Positions 40,017-64,000 of a DNA stretch of 64,000 bases are shown one piece after another. Position numbers and translations under genes: made by a program. The notes below the pieces were generated by a model. The model saw only the letters and a program-made list of their open reading frames with translations. It was not told where the DNA came from and did not search any database. How positions within the stretch are numbered: the stretch's first letter is position 1; each line of letters opens with the position of its first letter. Source of the stretch: Thermoanaerobaculia bacterium (lineage in GTDB: Bacteria; Acidobacteriota; Thermoanaerobaculia; Gp7-AA8); assembly GCA_035999335.1 (NCBI GenBank), contig DASYGV010000094.1, positions 21,652 to 85,651 on the forward strand. The letters are read 5' to 3'.

Positions 40017-41381
40017 CTAAACCTTCTTCGCCAGCGGATCGAACTTCCAGCGCAGGTCCGTGAACGTGCCTCCGCCGCCCGTGGCGGTGGTGCCCCACAT
40101 CGCGAGCGGTGCGTAATGCTCGTCCACTCCGTGCGGCGCGAGTGCGTGCGGGTTTTCGACGGGGCCGGGCCAGATCACATCGCCGGTCGCGGTGCGCGTG
40201 GGGATCAGCCAATAGTCGCCCGTGCGGTAGCCGCCTTTCGGCGTGTCGACGTGCGAGAACTGCACTTCCACTCCGTCCGACAGCTCGATCCACTGGTTCT
40301 CCTTCACCGGCTCCGGTGGTGCAGCCCAGCGGCGGAGGATGGGATTCAGTTTCGGATCGTCGCCGGCGTTGTCCGCGGGCTGCGCATTCAGCGTCACGGT
40401 CATGCGATGGCGGTCGACCTCGATCACCTGCAGCAGCGGATGCACTTTGCGGCGAAGCGTGATCTCGTCATCGACGACCTCCACCCAGTCGTTCTTCCGG
40501 ATCGCCGTTCGGTCGTCGCGGCCGAGGGACTCGAGCTTCACGGTCGTGCCGTCGATCGGCGCGCGGACGGCATAGACGATGGCCGCGTTGTCCTGCGACC
40601 ACTTGAACGTCGCCGGCTTGTCCGTGGCCGGATCGGCGAAGTCGTGAATCTCGACGCGATACAAACGGTTCTCCGCGCCGCGATACCGAGCCTCGGGCGA
40701 GATCGTGCACGGCTCGAGCTTCTGGTTGATGATCGCTCGCGCCTTCATCCGCGCGCTGCTGCGGAGAAGCAGATTCAGCGCGAGGTAGTTCGCGTCGTAC
40801 GGCTCGATCTTCAGATCCTTCGCGAGGTCGATCACCGGCTTCGAGGGCATATACCGGATCTGCCACGTCACGACCGCGCGGCTCGCGGTGTCGGGTCCGA
40901 GGAGCGCGACCTCGCGGATCGAATCGTCTTCCGCGGACGAGATGTGCCGTTCCCACACCGCGAGGTAGAGCAATCGCTCGACGCGGTTGGGATTATCGTC
41001 CTTCGCCGGCCAGTACGAGTCGGCGTGCGCGGTGATACGGATGCCGTCGCCGAGCTTCTTCTGCAGCTCGGGATCGCCGATGACGTCCCAGAAATCCATC
41101 GGCGGCATGTTCACGCAGCGGATGCCGTCGACGTAGTAATGACCCCACGCGACGCGGAACGGGGACTTCGTCGGATCGTCTTTCTCGGGAACGATCTTGA
41201 ACCCGTTGCCCACGCCGCCGTGCGCGCCGATGACGTCGGCGCCGAGGCCGCGAAGAAACCGCAACGTCGACTCGGTCTGCTCGTTCCAGTCGGAGTCGAG
41301 CTGCACGCGTCCCATCTGCTGGAGCACGCGCGAGACGCGGTCGCGGTAGTGGGTGGGGTTCAGTGAGAAATCGCCGTGCAT
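40017..41381 (-). CDS. eCIS-linked conserved hypothetical, last gene of the operon (possibly the DUF6519 family)
   Basis: AGGAG lies 7 nt upstream of the ATG at 41381. The N-terminus MHGDFSLNPTHYRDRVSRVLQQMGRVQLDSDWNEQ is a motif I recall from genes at the distal end of phage-tail-like clusters. The family name is from memory and unverified. The track ORF start at 41894 is a spurious extension. Confidence 0.6.
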   Translation of the reverse strand: MHGDFSLNPTHYRDRVSRVLQQMGRVQLDSDWNEQTESTLRFLRGLGADVIGAHGGVGNGFKIVPEKDDPTKSPFRVAWGHYYVDGIRCVNMPPMDFWDVIGDPELQKKLGDGIRITAHADSYWPAKDDNPNRVERLLYLAVWERHISSAEDDSIREVALLGPDTASRAVVTWQIRYMPSKPVIDLAKDLKIEPYDANYLALNLLLRSSARMKARAIINQKLEPCTISPEARYRGAENRLYRVEIHDFADPATDKPATFKWSQDNAAIVYAVRAPIDGTTVKLESLGRDDRTAIRKNDWVEVVDDEITLRRKVHPLLQVIEVDRHRMTVTLNAQPADNAGDDPKLNPILRRWAAPPEPVKENQWIELSDGVEVQFSHVDTPKGGYRTGDYWLIPTRTATGDVIWPGPVENPHALAPHGVDEHYAPLAMWGTTATGGGGTFTDLRWKFDPLAKKV

Positions 41382-41391
41382 GATCGGTCTC

Positions 41392-43473
41392 CTAATCCGC
41401 GTAAATGATTCCGGTGTCCATTCCGGCAGGGGTGGCGTGCTCGAGCCGCAGGCGCAGGTTGGCGATGCGCTGCGGCAGGAAGAGGTCGTGGAACGCGCCC
41501 ATCTCCGATTCGTCGTCCGCGCCGCGGGTGATCTCCTCCGCGCAGTCGAACGCGAGCTCCGCGTAGTCGGGCTTCCCGAAGCGCACGCTCGTGAACGTCG
41601 GTTCCACGCGCCGCACCTCGGCGGCGACGACCATCGGCGGCTTGCCTTTGGTCTTCTCGAGAATGAGATCGGGCTGACAGTGATAGCGCTTCGGCGTGCG
41701 CGATTTTCGCGGCACCCAGCAGAAGCGGATGCAGCCGATCTGGCGCCGCACGACGCGCACGATCCCGGTGAAGATCGAGTTCTCGCCGAGCTCGATCGCG
41801 TGTGTCTCGATGCGGCCGAAGACCGTGCAGCGGACGATGCGCAGCGTGGCCCACGCGTACGACGCGCCGGGACCGACGACGGCCTCGCGATCATCTGAAG
41901 TCGCGTCGACGATCGAGTCGCTGATCGAGATGCGCAGCGGCTCCGACTCCGTGGTCTCGTCCATCACCGCGATCGTGCCGAGGATCGTGCGCTCGATGGT
42001 CACGCGTCCCTTGAGATTGCGCAGGTCGAGACTCGACTCGTCCGGTGCGGCAGGGCTGCAGTCGGGACGCACCGTCCAACCCGGCACGAGCGTCGAACGG
42101 CGGATGACCAGCCGCGCGTTCACCGGCTTCTCGCCTTTCCCCTCGACGCGCAGCGGACGTCCGACGACGAGGATGCCGTCGAGGGTGAAGCGCGATTTTT
42201 CGTTCAGCGTGACGCTCAGCGCCTCGCCGCGCGACGGGTGATAGTCGAGCACGTGGATCACGGGACGGCAGCGGTTCGCGGCGCGCAGTTGCAGCGTGTG
42301 CTGTTCCGCGATCTCGACGTCGAAGGACTCGGTGTAGAAGCCGCTGTCTACGATCTCGATGACCGCGTGCCGCGGTTTCTCTTCTTCCCAGAGCGCAATC
42401 GCCTCGGCGATCGTCGTCATCTTCTCGGCGGTTCCGACGCGATAAATCTTCGCGTCGCGCGGCTGCGTGATCACGCGCTGCGATTCGTGCGCGCCGACGT
42501 CGTCGCTGAAGCCGTAGCGATACGACACCCACATCGCGTCGGGCTCTTTCGAGACGGCGATGCGTCCGAGCTTCGGATCGACCGCGACCTTGCCGTCGGG
42601 CGGCCGGTATTCCCAGTCGGTCAGATCGGCGACGATGATGTTCTCGACCGGCACCGGATTCACCGGATCGTCGATCCAGATGACGAAGCTCTTCGCTGTG
42701 CCGTCTTCGTCGATGCCGTAGTAATCGCTGGTGCGTTTCTCCAGCGCGCGGCGGCGGATTGCGGTCGGCACGTGGATCTCGCTCGCGATCGTCGCGAGAT
42801 CGGGCTCGCGCCGCGCCTCGGTGAAGATCGGCGCGTCGTTGCCGAGGGCGCTGAAGGTGTAGAAGAAGTAGCCGCCGCCGCGTTGTACGAAATACGCGGG
42901 CGCGTGCGTGACCGTGAACGAGCGCAAACGCCACAGCCACGCCGCCGCGGTCGGGATGTTGTGCCAGCCGTCGGGATTCGGCGGGTTGATGCCGCGGACG
43001 TCGACGGTGTGCGCGAGGGTATCGAACGCGCCGTTGAGGAGATCGAGCGACTCTTCGTTGCGAAGATCGATGAAGCGTCCGCGCTCGTTGAGATGATTGA
43101 TCGATTGCGTGCGTCCGAGGAGCCTGTAGTACTCGACCGCGCGGGCGGGGAAGCCGCCGACGTCGTTCGCGAGCTCTTCGAGCTGCGCGAGCGTGCCGCG
43201 ACGGCGAAGGTCGCGCAGGTAATTCGCGACCGCGCGCCGCGGCGTCTTGCTCGCGAACACGACTTCATATCCGACCAGGTCGCCGATGTACGGCACGACC
43301 CAGTCCTCGCAGGTCTCGATGAACCAGTTCTCGTAGAGCTGAGCGATGTCTTCCTCGACGAGGTTCACCTGTTCGGAGATCGCGCGCAGGAGATCGCGCA
43401 GCGCGTGACGGTGTTCCTCATCGCGCTGGCGGTAGACGACCGGGAGGAGGTCGAACAGGCGGTCGATGTTCAT
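41392..43473 (-). CDS. Baseplate wedge protein, P2 gpI-like N-terminus (Afp12/Pvc12 equivalent) with a long C-terminal extension
   Basis: MNIDRLFDLLPVVYRQRDEEHRHALRDLLRAISEQVNLVEEDIAQLYENWFIETCEDWVVPYIGDLVGY matches the phage tail protein I / tail-domain pattern. Start is at the ATG at 43473. The track start at 43617 reads through a repeat element. Confidence 0.75.
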   Translation of the reverse strand: MNIDRLFDLLPVVYRQRDEEHRHALRDLLRAISEQVNLVEEDIAQLYENWFIETCEDWVVPYIGDLVGYEVVFASKTPRRAVANYLRDLRRRGTLAQLEELANDVGGFPARAVEYYRLLGRTQSINHLNERGRFIDLRNEESLDLLNGAFDTLAHTVDVRGINPPNPDGWHNIPTAAAWLWRLRSFTVTHAPAYFVQRGGGYFFYTFSALGNDAPIFTEARREPDLATIASEIHVPTAIRRRALEKRTSDYYGIDEDGTAKSFVIWIDDPVNPVPVENIIVADLTDWEYRPPDGKVAVDPKLGRIAVSKEPDAMWVSYRYGFSDDVGAHESQRVITQPRDAKIYRVGTAEKMTTIAEAIALWEEEKPRHAVIEIVDSGFYTESFDVEIAEQHTLQLRAANRCRPVIHVLDYHPSRGEALSVTLNEKSRFTLDGILVVGRPLRVEGKGEKPVNARLVIRRSTLVPGWTVRPDCSPAAPDESSLDLRNLKGRVTIERTILGTIAVMDETTESEPLRISISDSIVDATSDDREAVVGPGASYAWATLRIVRCTVFGRIETHAIELGENSIFTGIVRVVRRQIGCIRFCWVPRKSRTPKRYHCQPDLILEKTKGKPPMVVAAEVRRVEPTFTSVRFGKPDYAELAFDCAEEITRGADDESEMGAFHDLFLPQRIANLRLRLEHATPAGMDTGIIYAD

Positions 43474-43494
43474 GGGAGGTCTCCGTGAGCACGC

Positions 43495-43600
43495 GGAGCG
43501 CCGGCTTCCAGCCGGCCGGTCCGCCGGCATCCTGCCGGCCTTTTCGGTGCATCGTGCCGCCTGGAAGGCGGCGGAGCGGCCGGCTGGAAGCCGGCGCTCC
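43495..43600. repeat. Palindromic element GGAGCGCCGGCTTCCAGCCGGCC...GGCCGGCTGGAAGCCGGCGCTCC
   Basis: 106 bp intergenic between two baseplate genes. Long terminal inverted repeats flank an inner hairpin (ccggcatcctgccgg). Confidence 0.8.
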
Positions 43601-43617
43601 GATAGGAGGCGCTCCAA

Positions 43618-46600
43618 TCACTCTTCATCTTCGATCTCCGTGAGGATGAACAGGTCCGCGAGCTCCGGCGGGATGTACGCGATCTGTGTGAGCTTCGGGA
43701 CGATCGCGTTCACGCCTTCGATGTCCGGTGTACCGAAGCCGCCCTTCTCGCCGGTGAGGTCGATGACTTCGTCCTGCGCGATCGAGCCGAAGAGATCGAG
43801 GTCGACATACGTCACGCCCTCGACTCCCTGGATCGCGGCCACGGCCTCGGCCGGGAAGACGACTTGTCCGAAGTCGCGGCGGTCGTACGAGAAAATGTCG
43901 AGCAGCTTCGCGCGGACCTTCGGTCCGACCGACGTCCAGAGATAGTCGGGATGCACGCGCACTTTCGCGCTGCCGGCGATGACGAGCTTTTCGCGCGGTT
44001 GCACGACGAACGGCTGGTACGGATCGCCGAACCGGCGCAGGGCCTCGACGAGGTTGCGATAGAGATCGGAGTTGACGTCGATCTCGATGTCGCCCGTGCC
44101 GCCGACGGTGACGTGGACGATCTGGCGGCGACCGTCGGTGATCTCGACGGCGACGGCCTTGCTGATTCCGCCGAACGTGCGCGCGAAGTCGGCGTAGTCG
44201 CGCACGGAGACGATGCGTCCCATTGCCTGCAATGAGACCGGGATGCTGCGGCGCGCGTCGTCGCGCGACTCCGGATCCGCGCCGCCGCTCGCGGCGAGCG
44301 GGTTGATCACGTCTTTCACACCGAGCGGGCGCGAGATCGCAGTGGCGATCCGATTCGCGCGGACGTTGCCGGGCTTGCCGATGCCGCTGCGATAAAGCGC
44401 GCGCACGTTGTCGGGACCGGTCGGCAGACGCGAGCCTTCGCGGCCATTGCCGAAGGTCACCGAGACCTTGCCGTCGTCGGCCGTCTTCGTGATGAACACG
44501 CGATCCTGGGCGCCGGTGCCGAAGAACGTGTCCGTCTCGTGCCAGAGGATGTCGTTCACGCGCACGGCCAGCGTCGACTGCACGCCTTCGACCGTCGGCG
44601 CGCTGACGAACGTGAGCGGCGTCTGGTGGAGCGTGAACGTCTGCAGCGCCTTCGCGCCGTCGCCGGCGCCGAGGATCTCCGCGCGCGTGTCGCCGTGCGT
44701 TGCTTTGACGACGTTTGCGTAGACCTTCGCGGTCGAGCGTTTGTACCGGTACTTCATCCCCTCGGGCGCGAGCACGAGCGTGCTGTATGCGCTGCCGCCG
44801 GCGCCGGAATCGGGATGCAGCTCGATCGTCGCGACCATCGCCAGCTCGCTCGAGATCACGCCGGCCGTGCCGGGGATGTCGACGCGCTCGCCGCTGACGA
44901 TCACCCATCGTCCCGGCTCGAGACCTTCGACGACGGCGTCGAGGTCGATGCGCGTCGGACCTTCGTTGCCGTTCCCGTTTGCCGTCGGCTCACCGATCGG
45001 ACGATCGACGGGCTGCTGCGCGAGCGGGAGCTCCTCGCTCTCGAGCAGCACTGTGGTGGGCCGGATGATCGCGAGGTTGCCGACGTTGTTTCCGGCAGGA
45101 AAGTTCGCCCAGTCTCGATCGAACGACAGTCGCGTCGTCTTGCCGCTCATGACGTACGCCGTGCGCGTGCCCGTTTCGACGTCGCGGACCTTGCACACCA
45201 GCGTCGGGGCGACGCTCGTGCTGGGCGCATTCTGTCGCCGCTGCACCAGCGCGTAGCTTCCGCCGCGGACGGCGTCGGCCGGCGAATCGAGATACATCGT
45301 CGAGTTCTCTTCGCTGACGTCGAGGATGGTGGGCATGCCCTCCGGCATCGGCTCTTCGAAGAGCGTCGTCGGCGCGTTGTAGCCGAAGACCGAGGAGCGG
45401 CGGCGGAGGACGTGCATGCTCTGGAACTGCGCGAAGGGGACCGTGCCCGCCGTCGACGCTGCAAGCGCGGCGTGGAACATTCCGGAGACCTGCGGGATGA
45501 ACGAGCCGACGAGCCGCGGCAGGAAATCGGAGCTTGGCTGCAGAGACGTCTGGAGCGAACGGCTGTACTGCCATTTGCTCTTCGGCGCGAGCGCGGACGG
45601 AGCCGCGAGGTTCTTCACGATCGCGCTGACCTTCCACGGCTGCGTCGACGGCGTGATGACGACGTCCGTGTCGTCCGCGGTGATCGCGTCGCGCACGGGT
45701 CCGACATCGTCGATCCACGGCAGCAGTTGGAAGAGCGTGTTGCGCCCGCCGCCGAGGAGGATGTGGTCGACGATCCACTGCAGCACGGTCTCCCGCGGCG
45801 GAGGTGGGATGACGATCGCTTCTTCGGATCCCTTCGTTTTCTTTCTGGTTTTCTTCTCGAGCGGCGCGGGAGCCGGCATTTCCTCGCTGAGCGCCGCGAC
45901 CGCCGCCGCGTACACGTTCAGGTAGTACGGCCGCACCGGATCGAGTGCGACGCTTGTGCGGTCATTTTCGGTGTCGATGGTCGTTTTCATCGCGCGACGC
46001 ATCGCGTGAACGGGCGCGCCGGCGCGTGTGAAGACGAAGAGCAGCGGATCGCCGGCGTTGAGACGCGTGGTCGTTCCCTTGATCCAGACGTTCTCGAGGG
46101 TGAGGACGTTGTCGATCGTGATCGCCTGCGGTTTGCCAAGGCGCGGCTTGAGCGCGTTCCACACGCCGCGCGCTTCGAAGTCCTCGGAGGTCTCGAAGAC
46201 CTGCGGCTTCTCGTCCGCGCCGGGAGTGCTCTGCGCTTTCGAGCCCGCGGGGATGATTGTCTTCGTCGTCGCATCGACCGTGTAGGCGAGGTAGACGCTC
46301 GACGAGACGCCGGGCTTCAGTTTGTATCCGACGAGGCGTCCGAGCTCGAGGATCGAGCGGCGCTCGGTGGCGGTGCGGAGGAAGCCTTCGTTTGCGATGC
46401 GCTCCTGGTAGAAGGTGAGCACGTCGCCGACGGTGGCCCAGGCGTCGAGGAACGCGATCGCGGGATCGTCGGTCTCGCGCGTAGTCAGCGCGGGGATGGT
46501 GCTGAGGCGTCCGATCATGTCCTCGAGGAATGATCCGTGAGTGCCGATGCGATAACGCAGCGCGGAAAGGCCGGGACGGTTCTGCACCGGAATGTGCGGA

Positions 46601-46638
46601 CCGGCGCCGGAAAGACACGCGCAGCAGCCGCAGTTCAT
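43618..46638 (-). CDS. Baseplate J-like protein, paralog 2 (putative baseplate assembly protein)
   Basis: GGAGG lies 8 nt upstream of the ATG at 46638. The N-terminus is MNCGCCACLSGAGPHIPVQNRPGLSALRYRIGTHGSF. Next comes DDPAIAFLDAWATVGDVLTFYQERIANEGFLRTATERRS, the gpJ-type N-domain. The C-terminal J-like block is VSVRDYADFARTFGGISKA. Confidence 0.8.
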   Translation of the reverse strand: MNCGCCACLSGAGPHIPVQNRPGLSALRYRIGTHGSFLEDMIGRLSTIPALTTRETDDPAIAFLDAWATVGDVLTFYQERIANEGFLRTATERRSILELGRLVGYKLKPGVSSSVYLAYTVDATTKTIIPAGSKAQSTPGADEKPQVFETSEDFEARGVWNALKPRLGKPQAITIDNVLTLENVWIKGTTTRLNAGDPLLFVFTRAGAPVHAMRRAMKTTIDTENDRTSVALDPVRPYYLNVYAAAVAALSEEMPAPAPLEKKTRKKTKGSEEAIVIPPPPRETVLQWIVDHILLGGGRNTLFQLLPWIDDVGPVRDAITADDTDVVITPSTQPWKVSAIVKNLAAPSALAPKSKWQYSRSLQTSLQPSSDFLPRLVGSFIPQVSGMFHAALAASTAGTVPFAQFQSMHVLRRRSSVFGYNAPTTLFEEPMPEGMPTILDVSEENSTMYLDSPADAVRGGSYALVQRRQNAPSTSVAPTLVCKVRDVETGTRTAYVMSGKTTRLSFDRDWANFPAGNNVGNLAIIRPTTVLLESEELPLAQQPVDRPIGEPTANGNGNEGPTRIDLDAVVEGLEPGRWVIVSGERVDIPGTAGVISSELAMVATIELHPDSGAGGSAYSTLVLAPEGMKYRYKRSTAKVYANVVKATHGDTRAEILGAGDGAKALQTFTLHQTPLTFVSAPTVEGVQSTLAVRVNDILWHETDTFFGTGAQDRVFITKTADDGKVSVTFGNGREGSRLPTGPDNVRALYRSGIGKPGNVRANRIATAISRPLGVKDVINPLAASGGADPESRDDARRSIPVSLQAMGRIVSVRDYADFARTFGGISKAVAVEITDGRRQIVHVTVGGTGDIEIDVNSDLYRNLVEALRRFGDPYQPFVVQPREKLVIAGSAKVRVHPDYLWTSVGPKVRAKLLDIFSYDRRDFGQVVFPAEAVAAIQGVEGVTYVDLDLFGSIAQDEVIDLTGEKGGFGTPDIEGVNAIVPKLTQIAYIPPELADLFILTEIEDEE

Positions 46639-46652: not shown

Positions 46653-46759
46653 GTGGAGTGCGGCGGCAAGGCCGCCGCTTTCGAATACCGTCCGGTAGTC
46701 GGCGACAGTTGCGGTCTTGCCGCGGTCTTTGAAAGCGGCGGTCTTGCCGGCGCACTCCA
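46653..46759. repeat. Palindromic element GTGGAGTGCGGCGGCAAGGCCGCCGC...GCCGGCGCACTCCA
   Basis: 107 bp intergenic between the two J-like baseplate genes. It belongs to the same terminal-motif family as 24821-24984 and 39942-40014. Confidence 0.8.
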
Positions 46760-46762
46760 TAG

Positions 46763-51759: not shown

Positions 51760-51771
51760 GGGGTGCCCCTT

Positions 51772-51868: not shown

Positions 51869-51869
51869 A

Positions 51870-57654: not shown

Positions 57655-57663
57655 CGTTCGCCC

Positions 57664-59295
57664 TCAGGAAGCGGGGATGAGCAGCCGTTTGCCGATCGGC
57701 AGCAACGTGTCGGGAGGAAGTCCGGGATTGGCGCGGCGGAGCGACGACAGCGGGATCTCCCACATCTTCGCGATCTCCCACAGCGTCTCGTCCTTGATGA
57801 CCTCGTGGTAGAAGACGTTGCGGATGATGACGAAGGAGTCCGGCTCCTCGTCGACGCTGTGGTGGCGCTCTCCTTCCCCGCGGAAGATTTGATCGAGGAT
57901 GTTCGCCTCGGCGATGCCGCAGCGGCGTGCGATCGACTTGAGCGTCTCGCCTTTCTTGATGTCGTAGTACGAGCTGAAAGCCGAATCGATCATGCCGGGC
58001 GCATCGATCGGCTCGACGCCAGCCTCGCCTTTGCGGATGCCGAGGCTGTTGCGCTTCGTCGAATGCTCGCGGCGGATGCGATTCTCGACGTCGACGGCCG
58101 ACTCCTTCCCCTTCGGCGTCTGCGTGTGACGGCTCGCGAAGAACGTATCGAACGCGTGCTCGGTCATCACGTGGCCGCAGAGCTCGTGCGCGAAGATCAG
58201 CCACGGCGGATCGCGAAGGATCTGCGAGCGTCCGCTGCCGGAGAGCGGACTCGTGGCCGCGGCCCCTTCGATCTTGTCGTGCTCGCGTCCGGAGACGCCG
58301 ATGTGCGTTTCGGTTCGTGCGCCGCGCGGCCCGAGGGTCATGCCTTGGCCGCGGTCTTCGGTGCCGGACACGTTGATCGTCTCGGTCTTCCCGGCCTCCT
58401 CTCCCGGCGCTGTGAACGAATCGCCGGTGTGAAGGTGGACATCGGGCGCGCCGTCCGCGGTGATGTCGCAGAGGCATTTGCAGGAGACCGGTTTGCCGCT
58501 GCGGCGGAACGAAGTGCGCTTCATCTCGTCGCGGCAGAAGGCCTCGCGGTTCGGCGACGAGAGGACGCCGCTCGCGGAGTCGATCTTCCAGCCGCCGCCG
58601 GGGCACAACGTGTCGATCCAGGTCTGCGCGAGCTGCGCGTTCGTGAGAACAGGCAGCGCGGGATCGCGGCCGGCCGGCTGGTTGGGCGCGTCCTTTCCCG
58701 CGTCTGCGACGGTCATCTTGCGCTGCACGCGGCCGGCGTCTCCGCCCTGCTGCCCGACGTGTGCGAGCTCGTGCGCGAGAAGACGCCGTCCCGCTTCCGT
58801 GTGCGGCGCGTATTCGCCGTGATTGAAGACGATGTGCGAGCCGACGGTGTACGCGCGCGCAGTTACCGCACGGGCCGACTCCGCGGCTTCGGCATCGTCG
58901 TGCACGCGAATGGCGGCGAGTGACCGGGGGGCCGGCGCCTCGCCGGCCGTACCGCCGGCCCCCGGCCTGCGAGGCGCCGGCGCGACGGCCGCCGAGGCGG
59001 CGGCACCCCAGTTGTCCGCTTCCTGCTCGAATGCATCGCCAACCTCGCCGACGGCGAGCTTTTGCGGTCCAACCGACGGGACGCGCGTGAAGTCGTGCGC
59101 GAACCGCGGCTCGAAGAACGCACGCGTGTCGGAGTCGAGCGGACGTCCCGGCGTCGCGAGCACCCGCCGCACGGGCGCTGTCGCTTCGCCGCGGCAGGAG
59201 CGACACGCTCCGCCGCAACCGCACTTGCGTTGCACGGTCAGACCGGTGCTTCGGTCGGAGTCAGAAGTGCGGCGGGCGTGCTGATGCTCGTTCAT
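57664..59295 (-). CDS. DUF4157 / HExxGH-domain / double-LysM protein, tandem paralog A
   Basis: The N-terminus is QHARRTSDSD...[15 protein letters not shown]. Next comes [23 protein letters not shown], then [16 protein letters not shown]...[12 protein letters not shown]. The middle domain has FAHELCGHV and VENRIRREH. Two C-terminal LysM-like repeats are YDIKKGETLKSIARRCGI and HEVIKDETLWEIAKMWEI. Confidence 0.8.
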   Translation of the reverse strand: MNEHQHARRTSDSDRSTGLTVQRKCGCGGACRSCRGEATAPVRRVLATPGRPLDSDTRAFFEPRFAHDFTRVPSVGPQKLAVGEVGDAFEQEADNWGAAASAAVAPAPRRPGAGGTAGEAPAPRSLAAIRVHDDAEAAESARAVTARAYTVGSHIVFNHGEYAPHTEAGRRLLAHELAHVGQQGGDAGRVQRKMTVADAGKDAPNQPAGRDPALPVLTNAQLAQTWIDTLCPGGGWKIDSASGVLSSPNREAFCRDEMKRTSFRRSGKPVSCKCLCDITADGAPDVHLHTGDSFTAPGEEAGKTETINVSGTEDRGQGMTLGPRGARTETHIGVSGREHDKIEGAAATSPLSGSGRSQILRDPPWLIFAHELCGHVMTEHAFDTFFASRHTQTPKGKESAVDVENRIRREHSTKRNSLGIRKGEAGVEPIDAPGMIDSAFSSYYDIKKGETLKSIARRCGIAEANILDQIFRGEGERHHSVDEEPDSFVIIRNVFYHEVIKDETLWEIAKMWEIPLSSLRRANPGLPPDTLLPIGKRLLIPAS

Positions 59296-59304
59296 CGTTC
59301 GTCC

Positions 59305-60885
59305 TCAGGAAGCGGGGATGATCAGCCGCGCGCCGTTGGGCGCCGCGCCTGTCGCGGGAAGTGTCGGGTTCGCACGGCGGAGTGACGCGAGCGGGATCCC
59401 CCACGTTTTGGCGATGTCCTCGACCGTCTCGCCGCTCAGGACGTCGTGGTAGAAGACGCCCCGGATGAAGAGAACTTCGTTTTTCGGAATCGCGGCATCA
59501 GCGTTCTTGAAGCGGTCGCCTTCCCCGCGAAAGATGTCCCACGTGATGCGGAACGTCGCAATGCCGAAGCGCGCGGCCACGGTGCGCAGCGTGTCGCCGG
59601 CCAGCGGCGTGACGTACGAGCCGCGGATGACGATGCTGGCCGACGGGTCGTTCGGGTCTTCGACGCGCGCATCTCCCTGACGGATGCCGAGGTTGTTCGC
59701 CACCGTCGAATGCTCGCGGCGAATCCGGTTCTCGACGTCGACGGCCGACACCGTTCCGCTCGGGGTCTGCACGTGTGATCCCCTGCCGAATGCGCTGTTC
59801 GCGCGAGGCCCGACGACGTGGCCGCAGACCTCGTGCGCGAAGATGATCCACGGCGGGTCCTGCAGCAGTTGTCCTCGGCCGCTCCCACCAGCGGGTGCCG
59901 TCGCGCCCGCGCCGCGCACACCCCACCCCGCGCGCCCGGAGATGCCGACGTGCGTTTCCGTGCGCTTCCCCTCGGGATCGAGCGTCGCGCCCTGACCCTC
60001 CTTCGTCACATCGTGCTTCTCGGTATTCGTCCTGTCCTTGTCCGGCGCCTCGAAGACGTCTCCGGTGTGCAGCCAGACCGACGGCGAGCCGGGTGCGGTG
60101 ATGTCGCAGAGACACTTGCACGACACCGGATGCTTGCTGCCCGCGTAGCCGGGCGTCGCCGGAGCGGTCCCGTCGGTCGTCGGGCCGCCTCCGCAGAACG
60201 CGGCCCGGTTCGCAATCGAGAGAACACCCAAGCCCGGGTCCACGGTCCATCCGTGCGATCCGCAGAGCGAGTCGATCCAGCTCTGTACGAGCTGCGCGTT
60301 CGTGAGCTTCGGTTGACTCTGGGAGAACGTCGCCGGGTCGAAGACGCCTAGCGATCGTTGCAGCGTTCCAACATTCTGTTGACCGACGTGCGCGAGCTCG
60401 TGCGCGAGAAGACGACGTCCCGCTTCCGTGTGCGGCGCGTATTCGCCCTGATTGAAGACGATGTGCGAGCCGACGGTGTACGCGCGTGCGGTCACCGCGC
60501 GCGCCGACTCCGCGGCTTCCGCATCGTCGTGCACGCGAATGGCGGCGAGCGACCGGGGGGCCGGCGCCTCGCCGGCCGTACCGCCGGCCCCCGGCCGGCG
60601 AGGCGCCGGCGCGACGGCCGCCGAGGCGGCGGCACCCCAGCGGTCCGCTTCCTGCTCGAACGCGTTGCCTGCCTCACCGACGGCGAGTTTCTGCGGCGCC
60701 TGCGTCGCGGCGACGCGCGTGAAGTCGTGGCCGAAGCGCGGCTCGAAGAACGCGCGCGACGCGGAATCGAGCGGACGTCCCGGCGTTGCGAGCACACGCC
60801 TCACGGATGGCGGCGCATCGTTGCCGCAGGAATGACACTTGCCGCCGCAGCCGCATTTGCGCTGAAGCGTGGCCGCGGCCATCAT
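59305..60885 (-). CDS. DUF4157 / HExxGH-domain / double-LysM protein, tandem paralog B
   Basis: Same architecture as paralog A: [68 protein letters not shown] and two LysM-like repeats. The ATG at 60885 overlaps the upstream TGA. Confidence 0.8.
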
Positions 60886-61139
60886 TTCGCGCCTCCCACG
60901 CCGCCGTACACCGAGCCCGCGATCGACGTGCCGAGTTGTTGGACGTCGTTCGCCAAGGAGATCCGCGGCGCGCGCACGCTCGGCACGGCGATGCCTCGAG
61001 CGAGCGCTGGCGAGATGCCGCCGCTTGCGATTAGCCTTGCGAGCTCCGCCTCGATCGCCGCCTGCAATCGCGGACGATCGGCGGCGCGCACGTTGACGCC
61101 GTCGAGCACGAGGCGGTCGATGTGCAGGCGGACGCTCAT
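60882..61139 (-). CDS. 85-aa conserved-looking hypothetical coupled between the ATPase and the cargo genes
   Basis: [37 protein letters not shown]. It has ATGA overlaps at both ends (61136-61139 and 60882-60885), which argues that it is translated. Confidence 0.55.
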
Positions 61140-63274
61140 AAGACAGCCATCCAGCGGAAGTCGGCCTCGTTGATCGGCTTCTGCAGCTTGCGCATCTCCG
61201 TCCGCGCGGCCTCGAGCACGATCGGCATGGTCACGTTCGTGCCGCGGTCGGCGGCGAGGAACGCCGCGTTGAGGACGATGTTGTGCACACTCCCGCCGGT
61301 GAGGTTCAGCTTCGCGAGGCGATCGAGATCGAGCTCGTCCGTCGGAGTTTCAGGCGGGAACGCGCGACGCCAGATCGCCCGCCGCTCTTCGGGGCCGGGG
61401 AAGGGAAACTGCACGATGAAGCGCAGGCGGCGCATGAACGCGGGGTCGAGCGCGTCCTTCAGGTTCGTCGCGAGGATCGCCAGACCGCGATACGACTCCA
61501 GCCGTTGCAGGAGGAAGTTGATCTCGATGTTCGCGAAGCGGTCCTGGCTGTGCTGGACCTGCGTGCGCTTGCCGAACAGCGCGTCGGCCTCGTCGAAGAA
61601 GAGGATGCCGTTCGAGTCGTCGGCGGCGGTGAAGAGCTGCTGCAGGTTCTTCTCCGTCTCGCCGACCCACTTGCTCACGACCGACGAGAGATCGATGCGA
61701 TGCAGCGCGAGCCCGAGCTCGTTCGCGATGACCTCGGCCGCCATGGTTTTGCCCGTGCCGCTCTCACCCGAGAACAGAGCGCTGATACCGAAGCCGCGGT
61801 TCATCTTCGCGCGGAAGCCCCACTCGTCGTACACGCGGCTGCGTCCCGCGACGTGCGCGGCGATCTGCTGCAGCAACTCTTTTTCGACCGCGGGGAGGAC
61901 GAGATCGTCCCAACGCGCTTTCGCGTCGATGCGTTGCGCGAGCGAGTCGATGTGCAGGCGCGTCTGCAGTCCGGCGAACGACCAGAGGCGATCGCTGAGC
62001 GGTCCCTCGGCCTCGTCGTCCTGCGCCTGCGCGACGATGCGGCGGATCGCGGCGACGCTGAGATTGAACTGACCGGCGAGACGCGACGCGTCGCCGTCGT
62101 GATCTTCGCCGAGGAGTGTGGTCCAGACTTCGCGCTGCTCGGCGGGCGTCGGCTTGTCGACGTCGAACGTGTGCGAGCCCTGCGGCACCGGCCATGTCTC
62201 CTTCGCGTCGACGAACAACACGCCGCCGCCGCGAGCGAGGAAGCGCTTGAGCGGCGTCGCATGCGCCTCGGCGTTGCGATCGACTTCGCGTGCGTCGAGG
62301 TAGAGCGCGATCGGGAGCAGCAGCGTCTCGCGCTGCCAGAGTCGCGAGAGCGTTTCGAGCTCTCCCGGTTGCACGGGGAGCATGTCGGCGGAGAGGCGAT
62401 AGAGCGTGAGGCCGAGTCGATGCGACGCGGCGCGCGCGACGAGCTGCTTGCTCTCCGCGTCGCGTCCGAGGAGCTGGAGCGGACGGAGGCGGGGCTGATC
62501 GTGTTGCAGCGCGCGGAGGACCAAATCGACGACCGCGGCCTGCGACGCCGGCAGCTCGTCGTCGTGCACCGGCTCGGAAAGCGGCATCACGAACGACGCG
62601 ATGCGGTCGTCGAGATGGCTGAGACCTTTGATGTAGTTGACGACGCGCTCGTCCGCGCGCATTGCACTCGTCGTCAGCGGCTGCGTGCCGGCGGGGCCGA
62701 TGTCGATGAAGCGCCAGTAGCGCAGAGGGCGATCGGGCGAGATCGCGTCCCAGCTCGCGCCTTCGAAGATGGCCATCGCTAGCGCGTACGTCGGGAACGG
62801 ACGGGACTGATCGTCCTGTGCGCGCGCACACAGCGCTGCGATGCGCGTGTCGAGCTCCATCGCCACGCAGAGAAGCAGCACGTCGCGCTCGAAGTTCGTG
62901 AGGCCCGTGCGATGAGCGAGCAGCATCATCGCCGGCGGCGGCTCGCCCGTCTCCGCATCGCGCATTTTCTTTTCGGCCTCGCGGACCTGCTCCGCGGTGA
63001 CGCCGGGAGCGGGTGGAAGCGCGGGACGCGTCGGCCCGGGCTGCGGTGGGGTGGGAGTCGTGCCCGGTGACGTGCGCCGCCACGTCCACCATGACGCGCT
63101 CTCCTCGTTCGTCGTCGTTTCCGTGCGCGGCGTCGCGCGCTGCTCGGCGACGACGAACGGTTGCGTCGACATAGACGGCACGTGTCGTGTGAGCAGGAGC
63201 CGCAGCCACTCGACGGCCGCGGCGAGATATGCGTCATTGCTCTGATGCCACGTCGAGAGATCTCGGGCGTTCAT
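61136..63274 (-). CDS. eCIS-type AAA+ ATPase (Afp15/Pvc15 equivalent)
   Basis: The C-terminal AAA module has Walker A GESGTGKT and Walker [12 protein letters not shown]. It also has SRH-like [20 protein letters not shown]. Start is the ATG at 63274 (MNARDLSTW), overlapping the upstream TGA. The track start at 63676 adds 134 Arg-rich residues. Confidence 0.9.
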
Positions 63275-64000
63275 GGCTGCACCTCGACGCTCTGGTCCGG
63301 ATCGAACTCGAGCTTGTCGCCGGTCTTGACGATGGGAATCGAGTCGACGCCGTCGACACGCAGGCGCACGCGATGGAGACCGGCGACGTCGGGCGCGTCG
63401 AACTTGACCACGGTCGGATCGTCGTTGGTGGCGGGAACGGCGAGCGGCGTCTTCACCGGCTTCGGCGCGCTGCCGTAGATCACGACGATCTGCTGGTCCT
63501 CGCGGATCTGCGGGATCGCCTCGATCGTGACTTCGAAGTCGCCGCCCGGGGCGACGACCTGCGTCGGGCTTACGGCGATGGACGGCGCGAGCGGGAACGA
63601 GACGGAGTTCGTCGCCCAAGCTACGTTGTTCGGCAGCGTGCCGGAGAGCGCGACCGTGTAGATTCCCGCGGGCCATGCCGCGGCGACGCCCGAGCCGCCG
63701 AGCGCTTCCGGGAGCGTGAAAGTCACGCGTCCCGCGTCGACGTGCGTCACCGGGAGATCGACTGCCGCGGTCATGAGCGGATGTCTGACGCGCGCGACGA
63801 GGCCGGACATGTCGAGCCGCTGGCCGTGCAGCTCGACGTCTTCGCCGAGACGTGCGGCGGCGAAGCCGGTGGCGGGCTTGGCGAAGTCGAGCACGGGAAG
63901 CGCGCCGGCGAGCGTGGTGACGCCGGAGTCGTCGGGGCCGCGCTTGAGCACCGGCAGCACGTTGCGCGAGGCGGCCTGGCTTTCGATGAGGAGCACTGTG
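63271..64000 (-). CDS. Hypothetical protein, C-terminal part (5' end beyond the window), beta-sandwich/Ig-like by composition
   Basis: The frame stays open to the window edge, and the track start at 63996 is just the first GTG. Segments such as RVTFTLPEALGG...GIYTVALSG and GGDFEVTIEA...GLHRVRLRVDGVDS look like Ig-like strands. It is translationally coupled to the ATPase. Confidence 0.5.
   Translation of the reverse strand, partial: TVLLIESQAASRNVLPVLKRGPDDSGVTTLAGALPVLDFAKPATGFAAARLGEDVELHGQRLDMSGLVARVRHPLMTAAVDLPVTHVDAGRVTFTLPEALGGSGVAAAWPAGIYTVALSGTLPNNVAWATNSVSFPLAPSIAVSPTQVVAPGGDFEVTIEAIPQIREDQQIVVIYGSAPKPVKTPLAVPATNDDPTVVKFDAPDVAGLHRVRLRVDGVDSIPIVKTGDKLEFDPDQSVEVQP

What the first reader, a model, noticed from the sequence alone, without database searches (positions are those of the whole stretch)
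40017..64000. Baseplate, spike, cargo and ATPase portion of an extracellular contractile injection system, encoded as one minus-strand operon of more than 24 kb
In transcription order the genes are:
- a partial Ig-like protein
- an Afp15-type AAA+ ATPase and an 85-aa protein
- three DUF4157 cargo genes, an Lgt-like membrane protein and a fourth DUF4157 gene
- a tube-fold protein and a LysM-like protein
- a gpD-like hub, a gpV spike and a PAAR-like tip
- gp25 and two baseplate J paralogs
- a gpI-like wedge protein and a terminal protein with the QGRVxLDSDWNE motif.

Nine junctions are ATGA/4-nt overlaps or gaps of 21 nt or less. The three larger gaps are each filled by a palindromic repeat. No capsid, portal, terminase, integrase or lysis genes and no TssB/C/K/M genes are present. 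This argues for an eCIS and against a prophage tail or a T6SS. Sheath, tube, tape-measure-like and cap genes are absent from the window and should lie upstream beyond 64000. An eCIS in this type of high-GC soil genome, with this cargo set, is likely uncharacterised.
Basis: partly seen in the sequence, partly recalled or inferred. Interest (0 to 1): 0.85.

Follow-up and report, generated by a model that had tools for sequence, protein, structure and literature searches.

The report
Phage-tail-like injection system gene cluster
This is the larger part of a gene cluster for a phage-tail-like protein-injection machine in an uncultured soil-type acidobacterium; it belongs to an already catalogued and very widespread type, and its one unusual feature is a dedicated lipoprotein-transferase-like membrane protein next to one of the toxin genes.

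Summary
Window 40017-64000 (minus strand) is one tightly packed operon of 18 genes: cap (C-terminal part), AAA+ ATPase, an 85-aa protein, four DUF4157/eCIS_core cargo proteins, an Lgt-like membrane protein, a split tube-initiator, a split spike, a PAAR-like tip, gp25, two baseplate-J paralogues, a beta-helix wedge protein and a DUF6519 protein.

A metagenome contig 100% identical to the window extends it by 3.2 kb and carries sheath, gp19 tube and the Pvc16_N cap.

Corrections: the "partial Ig-like protein" is the C-terminus of the cap gene, and 14 junctions are tight, not nine.

The host is a Thermoanaerobaculia (Acidobacteriota) MAG. The same architecture recurs in all longer loci among the 80 metagenome loci retrieved. 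It matches the DUF6519 (eBAP5)/Tail_P2_I eCIS subtype catalogued in 2026.

The closest solved relatives (Streptomyces, haloarchaeal) fire inside the cell, so extracellular action is plausible but unproven.

New details: a small Lgt-like subfamily found only in this CIS clade, right after an effector that ends in a C-terminal cysteine; and a REP-like hairpin element read through in frame inside a baseplate gene.

Verdict: a real, new member of a known kind, of moderate interest.

The parts
63271..64000 (-). g1: C-terminal 242 residues of a 412-aa cap (tail terminator) protein, Afp16/Pvc16 type. The gene continues beyond the window.
   Evidence: L001 is 100% identical to the window here. The full ORF, L001:2686-3924, hits Pvc16_N at E 2.5e-32 over residues 13-188. 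The part inside the window has no Pfam hit.
61136..63274 (-). g2: 712-aa Afp15-type AAA+ ATPase (winged-helix domain plus AAA). Presumed cargo loader and assembly factor.
   Evidence: PF22977 WHD E 3.9e-20 and PF00004 AAA E 1.3e-28. It has an ATGA overlap with g1.
60882..61139 (-). g3: 85-aa protein of unknown function that always follows the ATPase.
   Evidence: No family hit. Orthologues sit at the same position in L007, L010, L015, L054, L056, L058 and L089.
59305..60885 (-). g4: 526-aa cargo protein. Domains in order: N-terminal Cys4 motif, eCIS_core (DUF4157), an unassigned middle domain with a FAHEVCGH motif, and LysM.
   Evidence: eCIS_core E 1.9e-27 and LysM E 2e-5. Sequence. It is a paralogue of g5 (88-93% DNA identity over 300-490 nt).
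57664..59295 (-). g5: 543-aa cargo protein, a tandem paralogue of g4. Domains: Cys4 motif, eCIS_core, middle domain, two LysM.
   Evidence: eCIS_core E 2.3e-24 and LysM E 1.6e-14 in two stretches. The start at 59295 is supported by N-terminal homology with g6.
54862..57654 (-). g6: 930-aa cargo protein with two eCIS_core domains and a C-terminal domain carrying an invariant HExxH...EGxTExxTR motif. It ends ...PPPCPA.
   Evidence: eCIS_core E 3.4e-59 in two stretches. CTD alignment A5. AF2 model pLDDT 82.7 and pTM 0.84, with no PDB fold match better than E 0.27.
54299..54886 (-). g7: 191-195-aa polytopic membrane protein of the Lgt (prolipoprotein diacylglyceryl transferase) family. It belongs to a CIS-specific subfamily and overlaps the end of g6.
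   Evidence: PF01790 LGT E 1.7e-11 (44.4 bits, cut-off 24.9), profile positions 105-237 of 240. At least 4 hydrophobic segments. Subfamily of about 37 clusters. Conserved Lgt motifs.
52863..54302 (-). g8: 479-aa cargo protein with an N-terminal eCIS_core domain and an unassigned C-terminal domain.
   Evidence: eCIS_core E 1e-27. ATGA overlap with g7.
52205..52855 (-). g9: 216-aa candidate tube-initiator (the tube-like half of a split Cis7/Afp7).
   Evidence: CIS_tube E 0.043. A profile of 34 orthologues hits 9rce_H (Salmonella eCIS 'peptidoglycan-binding protein') at E 5e-4. There is no hhalign similarity to the locus's own gp19 tube. The position is conserved in 46 loci.
51870..52208 (-). g10: 112-aa LysM/gpX-like baseplate hub protein (the LysM half of a split Cis7).
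   Evidence: PHROG baseplate wedge and hub families E 2.4e-5 and 7.3e-5. Phage_tail_X E 0.021. The profile hits LysM proteins and tCIS All3321 residues 164-220 only weakly.
51771..51869 (.). REP-like palindromic element that fills the 110-nt gap between g10 and g11.
   Evidence: 37-nt arms, 97% complementary. RNA fold -86.2 kcal/mol, z -11.5. Family motif GGAGTGCGGCGGC.
50629..51759 (-). g11: 376-aa gpD/gp27-like hub, the N-terminal part of a split VgrG-like spike.
   Evidence: VgrG_rel E 3.6e-5. In a concatenated query, g11 and g12 align as one stretch to single VgrG-like chains (7aef_q, 9rce_F, 7b5h_AJ).
50108..50632 (-). g12: 174-aa gpV/gp5 OB-fold spike, the C-terminal part of the split spike.
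   Evidence: Phage_base_V E 3.6e-20. ATGA overlap with g11.
49777..50094 (-). g13: 105-aa PAAR-like spike tip.
   Evidence: PAAR_motif E 0.069. A profile of 37 orthologues hits the phiKZ PAAR tip protein 6p1z at E 1.2e-4. Cys and His columns are invariant.
49396..49755 (-). g14: 119-aa gp25-like sheath initiator.
   Evidence: GPW_gp25 E 3.2e-17. Matches 9gtp_V (Streptomyces CIS Cis9) at E 4.4e-7.
46763..49399 (-). g15: 878-aa baseplate J/Cis11-like paralogue 1. It carries a REP-like element at 48303-48397 that is read through in frame.
   Evidence: TIGR02243 E 1.1e-75. The REP copy is 86% identical to the element at 51792-51881. The insert lies in a variable loop that most homologues lack.
46653..46760 (.). 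REP-like palindromic element that fills the 124-nt gap between g15 and g16.
   Evidence: 37-nt arms, 89% complementary. -65.3 kcal/mol, z -7.6.
43618..46638 (-). g16: 1006-aa baseplate J/Cis11-like paralogue 2.
   Evidence: TIGR02243 E 6.2e-71 and Baseplate_J E 3.6e-6. Matches 9gtp_1K (Cis11) at E 1.8e-9. Paralogous to g15, BLASTP E 1e-18.
43474..43617 (.). A different long palindrome that fills the 144-nt gap between g16 and g17.
   Evidence: Sequence. -104.2 kcal/mol, z -9.2.
41392..43473 (-). g17: 693-aa wedge protein at the gpI/Tail_P2_I/Cis12 position, with a right-handed beta-helix domain.
   Evidence: Mu Gp48 E 0.15 at residues 5-62. AF2 pLDDT 70, high for residues about 185-640. Foldseek hits pectin methylesterase at E 3e-4, PL6 lyases, tailspikes, and the T4-type 'baseplate wedge initiator' at E 0.02-0.03. 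More than 7000 homologous clusters, none with a Pfam domain for this region.
40017..41381 (-). g18: 454-aa DUF6519 (eBAP5) protein. It is the proposed tail-fibre baseplate anchor, here without a long receptor-binding extension.
   Evidence: PF20129 E 9e-68. Homologues range from 450 to 1245 aa.
39941..40014 (.). REP-like hairpin directly after the operon's last stop codon, between the operon and the convergent MgtC gene.
   Evidence: Motif pair at 39943 and 40012. -54.8 kcal/mol, z -7.7. The convergent MgtC gene is shown.

Best explanation
The region is the 3' four-fifths of a roughly 28-kb operon. The operon encodes a phage-tail-like contractile injection system (CIS) of the Afp/PVC-like 'eCIS' superfamily, in an uncultured Thermoanaerobaculia (Acidobacteriota) bacterium.

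Shown: the gene content and order. The order is sheath, tube, two small proteins and cap (these lie upstream, with the cap ending inside the window). Then come the AAA+ ATPase, an 85-aa protein, four DUF4157 cargo proteins with an Lgt-like membrane protein among them, a tube-initiator split in two (g9 and g10), and a spike split in two (g11 and g12). Last are the PAAR-like tip, gp25, two Cis11/J paralogues, a beta-helix wedge protein and a DUF6519 (eBAP5) protein.

Inferred from characterised relatives: the baseplate nucleates on the spike-hub complex, and tube and sheath polymerise up to the cap. The ATPase helps load the DUF4157 proteins into the tube lumen through their N-terminal regions. 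A baseplate rearrangement then triggers sheath contraction, which expels the tube, spike and cargo.

The LysM domains on two cargo proteins point to the bacterial cell wall as the substrate. So do the 3D and YkuD domains in relatives and the HExxH motifs.

The DUF6519 protein and the beta-helix wedge protein are the likely surface-binding parts. This favours release from the producer and action from outside (about 55-60%) over firing inside the producer.

The Lgt-like protein is most simply read as the self-protection or partner protein of the effector encoded just upstream.
For: - Family hits for 11 of the 18 genes are above threshold.
- Sheath, tube and cap were found on an identical contig that extends the window.
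- The nearest solved homologues are all CIS components: sheath 8bky/9gtp at E 1.7e-50, 9ezm, Afp3 and Pvc; tube 7b5h and 7adz; gp25 9gtp_V; Cis11 9gtp_1K; spike 7aef_q.
- The full order is conserved in a Thermoanaerobaculia MAG and in every sufficiently long locus among 80 metagenome loci.
- DUF4157 is an eCIS marker, and AlgoCIS DUF4157 cargo sits in the tube lumen and depends on the ATPase.
- DUF6519 equals eBAP5, a fibre anchor placed downstream of a Tail_P2_I-type gene.
- The flanks are ordinary chromosomal genes, with no capsid, terminase or T6SS membrane-complex genes.
- DUF4157 effectors with downstream protective partners are known in the haloarchaeal system.
Against: - No particle, expression or secretion data exist for this organism.
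- The sheath, gp25 and Cis11 proteins match best the Streptomyces CIS, which works in the cytoplasm, and the haloarchaeal CIS, which is membrane-anchored.
- g18 is only 454 aa, essentially the anchor domain alone. Relatives have 800-1245-aa versions.
- No lysis cassette was seen.
- The labels for g9, g10, g13 and g17 rest on sub-threshold or fold-level evidence.
- The 5' end of the operon in this genome was not recovered beyond the sheath C-terminus.
Confidence: 0.85

Rival explanations
1. The gene set is the same, but the machine works inside the producer. It would float free in the cytoplasm or dock to the cytoplasmic membrane and fire there. The outcome would be regulated cell death, as in Streptomyces CIS-Sc, or contact-dependent killing, as in the haloarchaeal T6SS-like CIS or the cyanobacterial tCIS. 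The Lgt-like membrane protein would then serve as the membrane adaptor, analogous to CisA or Hbor_38620.
For: - The best solved matches for the sheath (8bky/8bl4 E 1.7e-50; 9ezm E 2e-46), gp25 (9gtp_V) and Cis11 (9gtp_1K) come from these intracellular systems.
- Two Cis11-type subunits per wedge is a CIS-Sc feature, and haloarchaeal clusters have a 'Cis11a'.
- g7 is the only clearly polytopic membrane protein in the cluster (at least four strongly hydrophobic segments; a few other proteins have single marginal ones).
- Many of its homologues carry an extra soluble C-terminal domain of about 110 aa. This resembles the six-helix anchor with a cytoplasmic domain in haloarchaea.
- g18 lacks a long fibre extension.
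Against: - A DUF6519 (eBAP5) gene is present. The catalogue that defined it takes such genes as fibres of extracellular systems, including in phyla once thought purely intracellular.
- g17 carries a tailspike-type beta-helix.
- The Lgt-like gene is confined to a small subclade, while the rest of the architecture is widespread without it. It therefore cannot be a general anchor.
- The window's copy lacks the soluble domain.
Confidence: 0.3
2. A defective prophage tail or R-type tailocin: a phage tail module that kills by membrane depolarisation and carries no protein cargo.
For: Sheath, tube, gp25, J, gpV and gpD-like genes are shared with P2- and T4-type tails. One relative (L088) has an integrase just downstream of its cluster.
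Against: - The Pvc16_N cap, the Afp15-type AAA+ ATPase and four DUF4157 proteins are eCIS markers absent from phage tails and pyocins.
- There are no capsid, portal, terminase, holin or endolysin genes in about 40 kb of flank.
- No tape-measure gene of phage size is present.
Confidence: 0.03
3. A canonical type VI secretion system.
For: The VgrG-like, PAAR-like and gp25 (TssE-like) components are common to both kinds of system.
Against: - The sheath is a single phage-type Phage_sheath_1/1C protein, not TssB/TssC. The tube is gp19-type, not Hcp.
- No TssJ, TssL, TssM, TssK, TssA or ClpV family was found in any scanned gene of the window or of related loci.
Confidence: 0.01

Closest known systems
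eBAP5 (DUF6519)/Tail_P2_I-type eCIS subtype, catalogued by the Levy laboratory (Nat Commun 2026, PMC12923769)
   Same: A DUF6519 gene sits at the 3' end, directly after a gpI-position wedge gene and the baseplate-J genes. DUF4157 cargo, a Pvc16_N cap and an AAA+ ATPase are present. A beta-helix pectin-lyase fold is associated with the fibre module.
   Different: - The catalogue links eBAP5 mainly with Actinobacteriota, whereas this host is Acidobacteriota (Thermoanaerobaculia).
- Here the beta-helix lies in the wedge protein g17, not in the DUF6519 protein. The DUF6519 protein is short, at 454 aa.
- g17 does not reach the Tail_P2_I Pfam model.
Streptomyces coelicolor CIS-Sc (class IId; PDB 8BKY, 9GTP)
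   Same: It gives the best solved matches for sheath, gp25 and Cis11. Its wedge is built from two Cis11-type subunits plus one further subunit. It has a minimal single-protein cap and no obvious phage-size tape measure.
   Different: - CIS-Sc has one cis11 gene used twice, whereas here there are two diverged paralogues (28% identity).
- CIS-Sc lacks fibre genes and uses the bitopic protein CisA. Here there is a DUF6519 gene and no detected CisA relative.
- Here Cis7 and the spike are each split into two genes.
AlgoCIS of Algoriphagus machipongonensis (PDB 7ADZ, 7AEB, 7AEF)
   Same: The cargo proteins are built as an N-terminal loading region, then DUF4157, then a variable C-terminal domain. 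An Afp15-type ATPase is needed for loading. AlgoCIS gives the second-best tube match (after the Anabaena tCIS) and the best spike match.
   Different: AlgoCIS has a cage-forming Cis11 extension, a complex cap and its own fibre type. Its spike is one polypeptide. It has no Lgt-like gene.
Haloarchaeal T6SS-like CIS (Halogeometricum borinquense; PDB 9EZM)
   Same: It gives the second-best sheath match. It secretes DUF4157 effectors whose toxicity is neutralised by the gene immediately downstream. A conserved polytopic membrane protein is associated with its cluster.
   Different: It is archaeal. Its proposed anchor is a six-helix protein unrelated to Lgt and encoded upstream of the core genes. 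Its membrane-bound mode of action has been demonstrated, whereas nothing has been demonstrated here.
Lgt, phosphatidylglycerol:prolipoprotein diacylglyceryl transferase (PF01790)
   Same: g7 exceeds the Pfam cut-off. It shares invariant columns with bona fide family members: an N-terminal Tyr, GRxGC, GCC, ExxRxD and PxQ..E.
   Different: - Only profile positions 105-237 match. The segment before the FYGG/HGGL region is missing, and phmmer finds no solved Lgt.
- The subfamily is small, about 37 clusters. All ten members examined (nine loci plus the window) lie inside CIS operons, and in eight of the nine pairs whose upstream gene is visible that gene ends in a C-terminal Cys.

Membership tests
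eCIS / Afp-PVC-like contractile injection system superfamily | Phage-type contractile sheath and gp19-type inner tube genes in the same operon | tested here: met
   They are not in the window. They lie on contig L001, which is 100% identical over 11,126 nt and extends the window. Phage_sheath_1 E 1.5e-8 and Phage_sheath_1C E 7.8e-8; Phage_T4_gp19 E 5.6e-41.
eCIS / Afp-PVC-like contractile injection system superfamily | Pvc16_N (DUF4255) cap/terminator protein | tested here: met
   The 412-aa ORF hits Pvc16_N at E 2.5e-32. Its last 242 residues are window 63271-64000.
eCIS / Afp-PVC-like contractile injection system superfamily | Afp15-type AAA+ ATPase | tested here: met
   WHD E 3.9e-20 plus AAA E 1.3e-28 in g2.
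eCIS / Afp-PVC-like contractile injection system superfamily | Baseplate core: gp25, Baseplate_J/Afp11, and a VgrG-like spike with a PAAR tip | tested here: met
   GPW_gp25 E 3.2e-17; TIGR02243 E 1e-75 and 6e-71; Phage_base_V E 3.6e-20. The PAAR assignment rests only on a profile hit at E 1.2e-4.
eCIS / Afp-PVC-like contractile injection system superfamily | DUF4157 (eCIS_core) proteins associated with the operon | tested here: met
   Four genes, E 1e-27 to 3.4e-59.
eCIS / Afp-PVC-like contractile injection system superfamily | No capsid, portal or terminase genes and no T6SS membrane complex nearby | tested here: met
   The flank genes are MgtC, OsmC, YHS, helicases, acyl-CoA dehydrogenase, a kinase, glycogen phosphorylase, an S9 peptidase and PLD. 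The far upstream side of this genome was not available.
eCIS / Afp-PVC-like contractile injection system superfamily | Particles are released from the producer and act from outside on a target cell | not testable with these tools
   This needs culture, electron microscopy or cryo-tomography. The sequence evidence is divided: a DUF6519 fibre anchor on one side, and intracellular nearest solved relatives on the other.
eBAP5/Tail_P2_I baseplate subtype (PMC12923769) | DUF6519 protein encoded downstream of the baseplate genes | tested here: met
   g18 hits PF20129 at E 9e-68 and is the last gene of the operon.
eBAP5/Tail_P2_I baseplate subtype (PMC12923769) | Tail_P2_I-type adaptor gene directly upstream of the fibre gene, instead of Afp12 | tested here: inconclusive
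   g17 is at the right position. Its only hit is the related Mu Gp48 model at E 0.15, and there is no Tail_P2_I hit. Its N-terminal 180 residues were modelled poorly.
Class IId Streptomyces-type cytoplasmic CIS | Absence of fibre genes and presence of a CisA-type bitopic membrane adaptor downstream of the baseplate | tested here: not met
   The gene downstream of the baseplate is a soluble DUF6519 protein with no hydrophobic segment. No direct comparison with the CisA sequence was run.
Canonical T6SS | TssB/TssC sheath, Hcp tube, TssJLM complex, TssK, ClpV | tested here: not met
   None of these families appears in any Pfam or NCBIfam scan of the operon, its upstream extension or the flanks.
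Lgt (PF01790) for g7 | Match to the family model above the curated cut-off | tested here: met
   44.4 bits against a cut-off of 24.9, but covering only profile positions 105-237 of 240. All NCBIfam Lgt equivalog models are far below their cut-offs.
Lgt (PF01790) for g7 | Full seven-helix body including the N-terminal half, and diacylglyceryl transfer to a lipobox cysteine | tested here: inconclusive
   Conserved motif columns are retained, but the region before the FYGG-type motif is deleted. Enzyme activity cannot be tested with these tools.

The most novel reading that the evidence does not exclude
The Lgt-like protein may be an active, CIS-dedicated diacylglyceryl transferase that lipidates the cysteine at the extreme C-terminus of the effector encoded just upstream. 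In the window this effector is g6, which ends ...PPPCPA. This would be a bacterial counterpart of C-terminal protein lipidation. It could tether or mask the toxin in the producer, or target it to membranes after injection.

The evidence does not exclude this:
- The subfamily keeps the motif columns shared with true Lgt enzymes.
- It occurs only inside CIS operons, in the window and nine other loci.
- Eight of nine upstream partners end in Cys within the last four residues.
- Apart from three ORFs on two short contigs recovered through homology to the g6 C-terminal domain, C-terminal-Cys DUF4157 proteins are confined to loci that carry this gene: 8 of 17 against 3 of 35.
Probability: 0.12. Interest if true: 0.8.

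Novelty: new member of a known kind. Interest (0 to 1): 0.35.

Why it matters
It adds a well-resolved example from Acidobacteriota, a dominant but poorly cultured soil phylum, to a recently recognised and very common CIS subtype. It also gives a complete parts list, including corrected gene starts and split tube-initiator and spike genes, that could guide expression or engineering.

The cargo set includes LysM-bearing DUF4157 proteins and a confidently modelled C-terminal domain with a conserved HExxH motif and no solved structural relative. This is a source of untested effectors that probably act on the cell wall.

The Lgt-like gene coupled to an effector ending in cysteine is a concrete, testable lead on how CIS effectors are neutralised or modified in the producer. 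The literature itself lists this as an open question.

None of this changes the general picture of what contractile injection systems are.

Tried and rejected
- Rfam scan of the whole window: no match.
- phmmer of the four-cargo concatenate against the PDB: no hit. phmmer of g7 alone: no hit.
- Profile of g17 orthologues against PDB sequences: only chance-level hits.
- Foldseek of the g6 C-terminal domain model: nothing better than E 0.27 despite pLDDT 82.7. Its metallopeptidase nature therefore rests only on the invariant HExxH...E motif and the strand-then-helix topology.
- hhalign of the g9 profile against the locus's own tube protein: no similarity. 'Tube fold' is not shown.
It was repeated with database homologues.
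- I considered that the N-terminal Cys4 motif ([13 protein letters not shown]) of g4-g6 might be the Lgt-like protein's substrate. I set this aside because it is not a lipobox. With my pattern it was found in only 2 of 33 DUF4157 ORFs of other loci.
- I considered that the palindromes are conserved regulatory elements of the operon. I rejected this. The exact motif occurs only in this genome's own contigs. L090 has no gaps at those junctions, L088 has gaps without palindromes, and L008 has an unrelated palindrome at one junction.
- The JGI gene calls for g5 (502 aa), g11 (366 aa) and the 41-aa ORF in the g15/g16 gap were judged less likely than the starts given here.
- The literature search for an Lgt-CIS link found nothing. 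The search for PF12322 found nothing useful.

Full report
**Observation**

The window has about 65% G+C, so raw ORF lists are noisy. I used third-position GC and start-codon context to resolve the genes. The result is one minus-strand array of 18 genes running from the window end at 64000 down to 40017.

The junctions are as follows:
- seven ATGA overlaps;
- one 13-nt overlap (g6/g7);
- six gaps of 7-21 nt;
- three larger gaps of 110, 124 and 144 nt.

Each large gap is filled by a long palindrome. The predicted RNA hairpins fold at -86, -65 and -104 kcal/mol, far beyond shuffled controls. It undercounts the tight junctions (nine against fourteen) and overcounts the ORFs (22 against 18).

**Gene identities**

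Pfam and NCBIfam hits above threshold:

| Gene | Hit |
|---|---|
| g2 | WHD + AAA |
| g4, g5, g6 (two copies), g8 | eCIS_core (the renamed DUF4157) |
| g4, g5 | LysM |
| g7 | LGT |
| g12 | Phage_base_V |
| g14 | GPW_gp25 |
| g15, g16 | TIGR02243 'putative baseplate assembly protein' |
| g16 | Baseplate_J |
| g18 | DUF6519 |

g15 and g16 are true paralogues (BLASTP E 1e-18, 28% identity).

The remaining labels are weaker:
- **g9.** It scores CIS_tube at E 0.043. A profile of 34 orthologues hits the 217-aa 'peptidoglycan-binding protein' of the Salmonella eCIS baseplate at E 5e-4. It shows no similarity to the locus's own tube protein.
- **g10.** It hits PHROG baseplate hub and wedge families at about 1e-5, and LysM-containing structures only weakly. 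One of these is the LysM end of the tCIS protein All3321.
- **g9 and g10 together** look like a Cis7/Afp7 tube-initiator split into two genes.
- **g11 and g12.** In a concatenated query they align as one continuous stretch to single VgrG-like chains of AlgoCIS, the Salmonella eCIS and tCIS. The spike is therefore also split, in P2 gpD/gpV fashion, and this holds in all relatives.
- **g13.** It is PAAR-like by profile (phiKZ tip protein, E 1.2e-4).

**The wedge protein g17**

g17 has no Pfam family. Its only hit is Mu Gp48 at E 0.15 at its N-terminus. Its family is very large: more than 7000 clusters at 90% identity, almost all labelled 'hypothetical'.

An AlphaFold2 model built on 41 sequences has mean pLDDT 70, with residues about 185-640 well predicted. 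It contains a right-handed beta-helix. Foldseek matches include pectin methylesterase (E 3e-4), PL6 alginate lyases and phage tailspikes. More weakly, it matches T4-type 'baseplate wedge initiator' proteins. 'gpI-like wedge' is therefore plausible by position, but the informative feature is the tailspike-type domain.

An exact-sequence look-up of the ATPase found three JGI metagenome contigs. One of them, L001, is 100% identical to window 52875-64000 and extends 3,194 nt further. The extension encodes the following, in order:
- the C-terminal 285 residues of a sheath protein (Phage_sheath_1 and Phage_sheath_1C);
- a gp19 tube (E 5.6e-41);
- a 206-aa zinc-ribbon protein with a marginal T4_baseplate hit;
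- a 228-aa Gln/Arg/Glu-rich protein;
- a 412-aa Pvc16_N cap.

The prediction 'sheath and tube upstream' is met. The statement 'cap absent from the window' is wrong.

In the nearest genome available, a Thermoanaerobaculia MAG with 55-88% protein identity, the syntenic operon starts at a 526-aa sheath gene preceded by divergently oriented genes.

Downstream of 40017 lie a convergent MgtC gene, OsmC, YHS, a helicase and an acyl-CoA dehydrogenase. The other 38 kb of the window hold ordinary chromosomal genes. There are no phage head, integrase or T6SS genes.

**Host and distribution**

The Lgt-like protein is 100% identical to an NCBI protein from a 'MAG TPA: Thermoanaerobaculia bacterium'. The closest named homologues of g17 come from the same class.

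A metagenome scan with g15 found 147 stretches encoding a relative, of which 80 loci were kept (34-58% identity). Every locus long enough shows the same order: cap, ATPase, (85-aa protein), DUF4157 cargo, g9-g14, two J paralogues, the g17-type wedge and a DUF6519 protein. The architecture is common, mostly in soil-type metagenomes.

**Comparison with known systems**

By sequence, the best solved matches differ by component:
- sheath, gp25 and Cis11: the Streptomyces CIS, then the haloarchaeal CIS for the sheath, then Afp and PVC;
- tube and spike: tCIS and AlgoCIS.

CIS-Sc is cytoplasmic, lacks fibres, needs the membrane protein CisA, and has wedges of two Cis11 plus one Cis12. The haloarchaeal system is membrane-anchored.

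On the other side, DUF6519 was defined in 2026 as eBAP5. It is one of five baseplate-anchor domains of eCIS tail fibres. It characterises a subtype that uses a Tail_P2_I-type adaptor in place of Afp12 and often carries pectin-lyase beta-helices. This locus fits that subtype, with three differences:
- the host is an acidobacterium;
- the beta-helix lies in the adaptor-position protein;
- the DUF6519 protein is short (454 aa, against up to 1245 aa in relatives).

I therefore file the locus as a member of the eCIS-type CIS superfamily and, probably, of the eBAP5 subtype. I leave extracellular against intracellular action open, at about 55-60% against 30%.

**Cargo**

g4, g5 and g6 share an N-terminal [13 protein letters not shown] motif ahead of DUF4157. 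g4 and g5 are recent tandem paralogues that end in LysM domains. Relatives carry 3D, YkuD and glutamine-deamidase domains. This points to the bacterial cell wall as the main substrate; this step is inference.

The C-terminal domain of g6 has invariant HExxH and EGxTExxTR motifs. Its model is confident (pLDDT 82.7) but has no solved structural relative. By analogy with AlgoCIS, the N-terminal regions would be loading signals read by the ATPase, and DUF4157 would be dispensable for loading.

**The Lgt-like protein**

g7 is the only clearly polytopic membrane protein in the operon. Its subfamily is small: about 37 clusters, then a drop from 153 to 44 bits before ordinary Lgt proteins.

All ten examples examined (nine loci plus the window) lie inside CIS operons. 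The upstream gene is visible for nine pairs, counting the partial membrane-protein ORF in L094. In all nine it is a DUF4157 effector. Where gene calls are available, the Lgt-like gene overlaps its end.

The alignment keeps the columns shared with bona fide Lgt family members: Tyr13, GRxGC, GCC, ExxRxD. It lacks the segment before the FYGG-type motif. Many members, though not the window's, add a soluble C-terminal domain of about 110 aa.

The upstream partner ends in Cys within its last four residues in eight of nine pairs. DUF4157 proteins with such a tail number 8 of 17 in loci that carry the Lgt-like gene, against 3 of 35 elsewhere. Those three all lie on two short contigs of the same clade. 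The Fisher test gives p = 0.003, not corrected for relatedness.

My ranking of its role:
- self-protection or partner protein of the effector, following the haloarchaeal precedent of downstream neutralising genes: about 35%;
- membrane adaptor: about 20%;
- enzyme that lipidates the C-terminal Cys: about 12-15%;
- other: the remainder.

No paper in the searchable library links Lgt to contractile injection systems.

**Palindromic elements**

A REP-like family with ends GGAGTGCGGCGGC...GCCGCCGCACTCC has five copies in the window:
- 24822-24985;
- 39941-40014, directly after the operon;
- 46653-46760;
- 48303-48397;
- 51773-51867.

The copy at 48303-48397 lies inside g15 and is translated in frame as about 32 residues. 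It sits in a loop that most homologues lack and that the nearest relatives fill with Pro/Lys-rich low-complexity sequence.

The elements are specific to this genome and are not conserved at these junctions in relatives. I read them as mobile REP/MITE-like insertions in permissive sites. They may incidentally affect mRNA stability or the stoichiometry of downstream products.

**Verdict**

This is a real and well-delimited CIS operon. The type is already catalogued and abundant, so the interest is moderate. It lies mainly in the Lgt-like/C-terminal-Cys effector pair and in the in-frame REP insertion.

Noticed in passing
window 48303-48397 (inside g15, 46763-49399, minus strand): A REP-like palindromic element lies inside the coding sequence of a baseplate-J paralogue. 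It is 86% identical to the intergenic copy at 51792-51881 and folds at -63.5 kcal/mol as RNA. It is read through in frame as about 32 residues, in a loop that most homologues lack.
   Followed up: yes
window 24822-24985, 39941-40014, 46653-46760, 51773-51867: These are further copies of the same REP-like family (ends GGAGTGCGGCGGC / GCCGCCGCACTCC). Four of the five copies in the 64 kb are in or at the end of the CIS operon. The exact motif was found only in contigs of this same genome.
   Followed up: partly
window 54862-54886 (g6/g7 junction), and loci L010, L089, L090, L091, L092, L094: The DUF4157 effector immediately upstream of the Lgt-like gene ends in a cysteine within its last four residues in 8 of 9 pairs. 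The exception is L007. Such tails are otherwise nearly absent from DUF4157 proteins of loci without the Lgt-like gene.
   Followed up: partly
window 60790-60850, 59200-59260, 57530-57590 (N-termini of g4, g5, g6): A conserved four-cysteine motif, [13 protein letters not shown], lies about 80 residues ahead of the DUF4157 domain in three of the four cargo proteins and in some relatives. It may be a zinc knuckle within the presumed loading region.
   Followed up: partly
window 57664-60885: g4 and g5 are tandem paralogues. Stretches of 300-490 nt are 88-93% identical, which suggests recent duplication or gene conversion of a LysM-bearing effector.
   Followed up: no
window 54862-56214 (C-terminal 450 residues of g6): The AlphaFold2 model is confident (pLDDT 82.7, pTM 0.84) and carries an invariant HExxH...EGxTExxTR motif. 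No PDB fold match is better than E 0.27, and only 8 sequence homologues were found in the word-indexed search.
   Followed up: yes
L001 1386-2689 (just beyond the window end): Between tube and cap lie a 206-aa protein with two CxxC pairs (marginal T4_baseplate hit, 26.8 bits) and a 228-aa Gln/Arg/Glu-rich protein. These are candidate assembly or length-determining factors. No phage-size tape-measure gene is present.
   Followed up: no
L008 2433-2584: A relative carries an unrelated palindrome with 45-nt arms at the same g10/g11 junction. That intergenic spot therefore seems to be a recurrent landing site for palindromic elements.
   Followed up: no
L088 13753-14936: In a 79%-identical relative on a 5.08-Mb contig, a tyrosine-recombinase (integrase) gene and a BrnA antitoxin gene directly follow the DUF6519 gene. 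This hints that the cluster can sit at a mobile-element boundary. The window has nothing comparable.
   Followed up: no
window 1-1426 (minus) and 12949-16236 (plus): Two large repeat-rich surface-type proteins. One is a DUF11/CARDB repeat protein running off the window start, with repeats of about 400 nt. The other is a 1095-aa Big_7 plus Lamin-tail-domain protein with repeats of about 770 nt.
   Followed up: no
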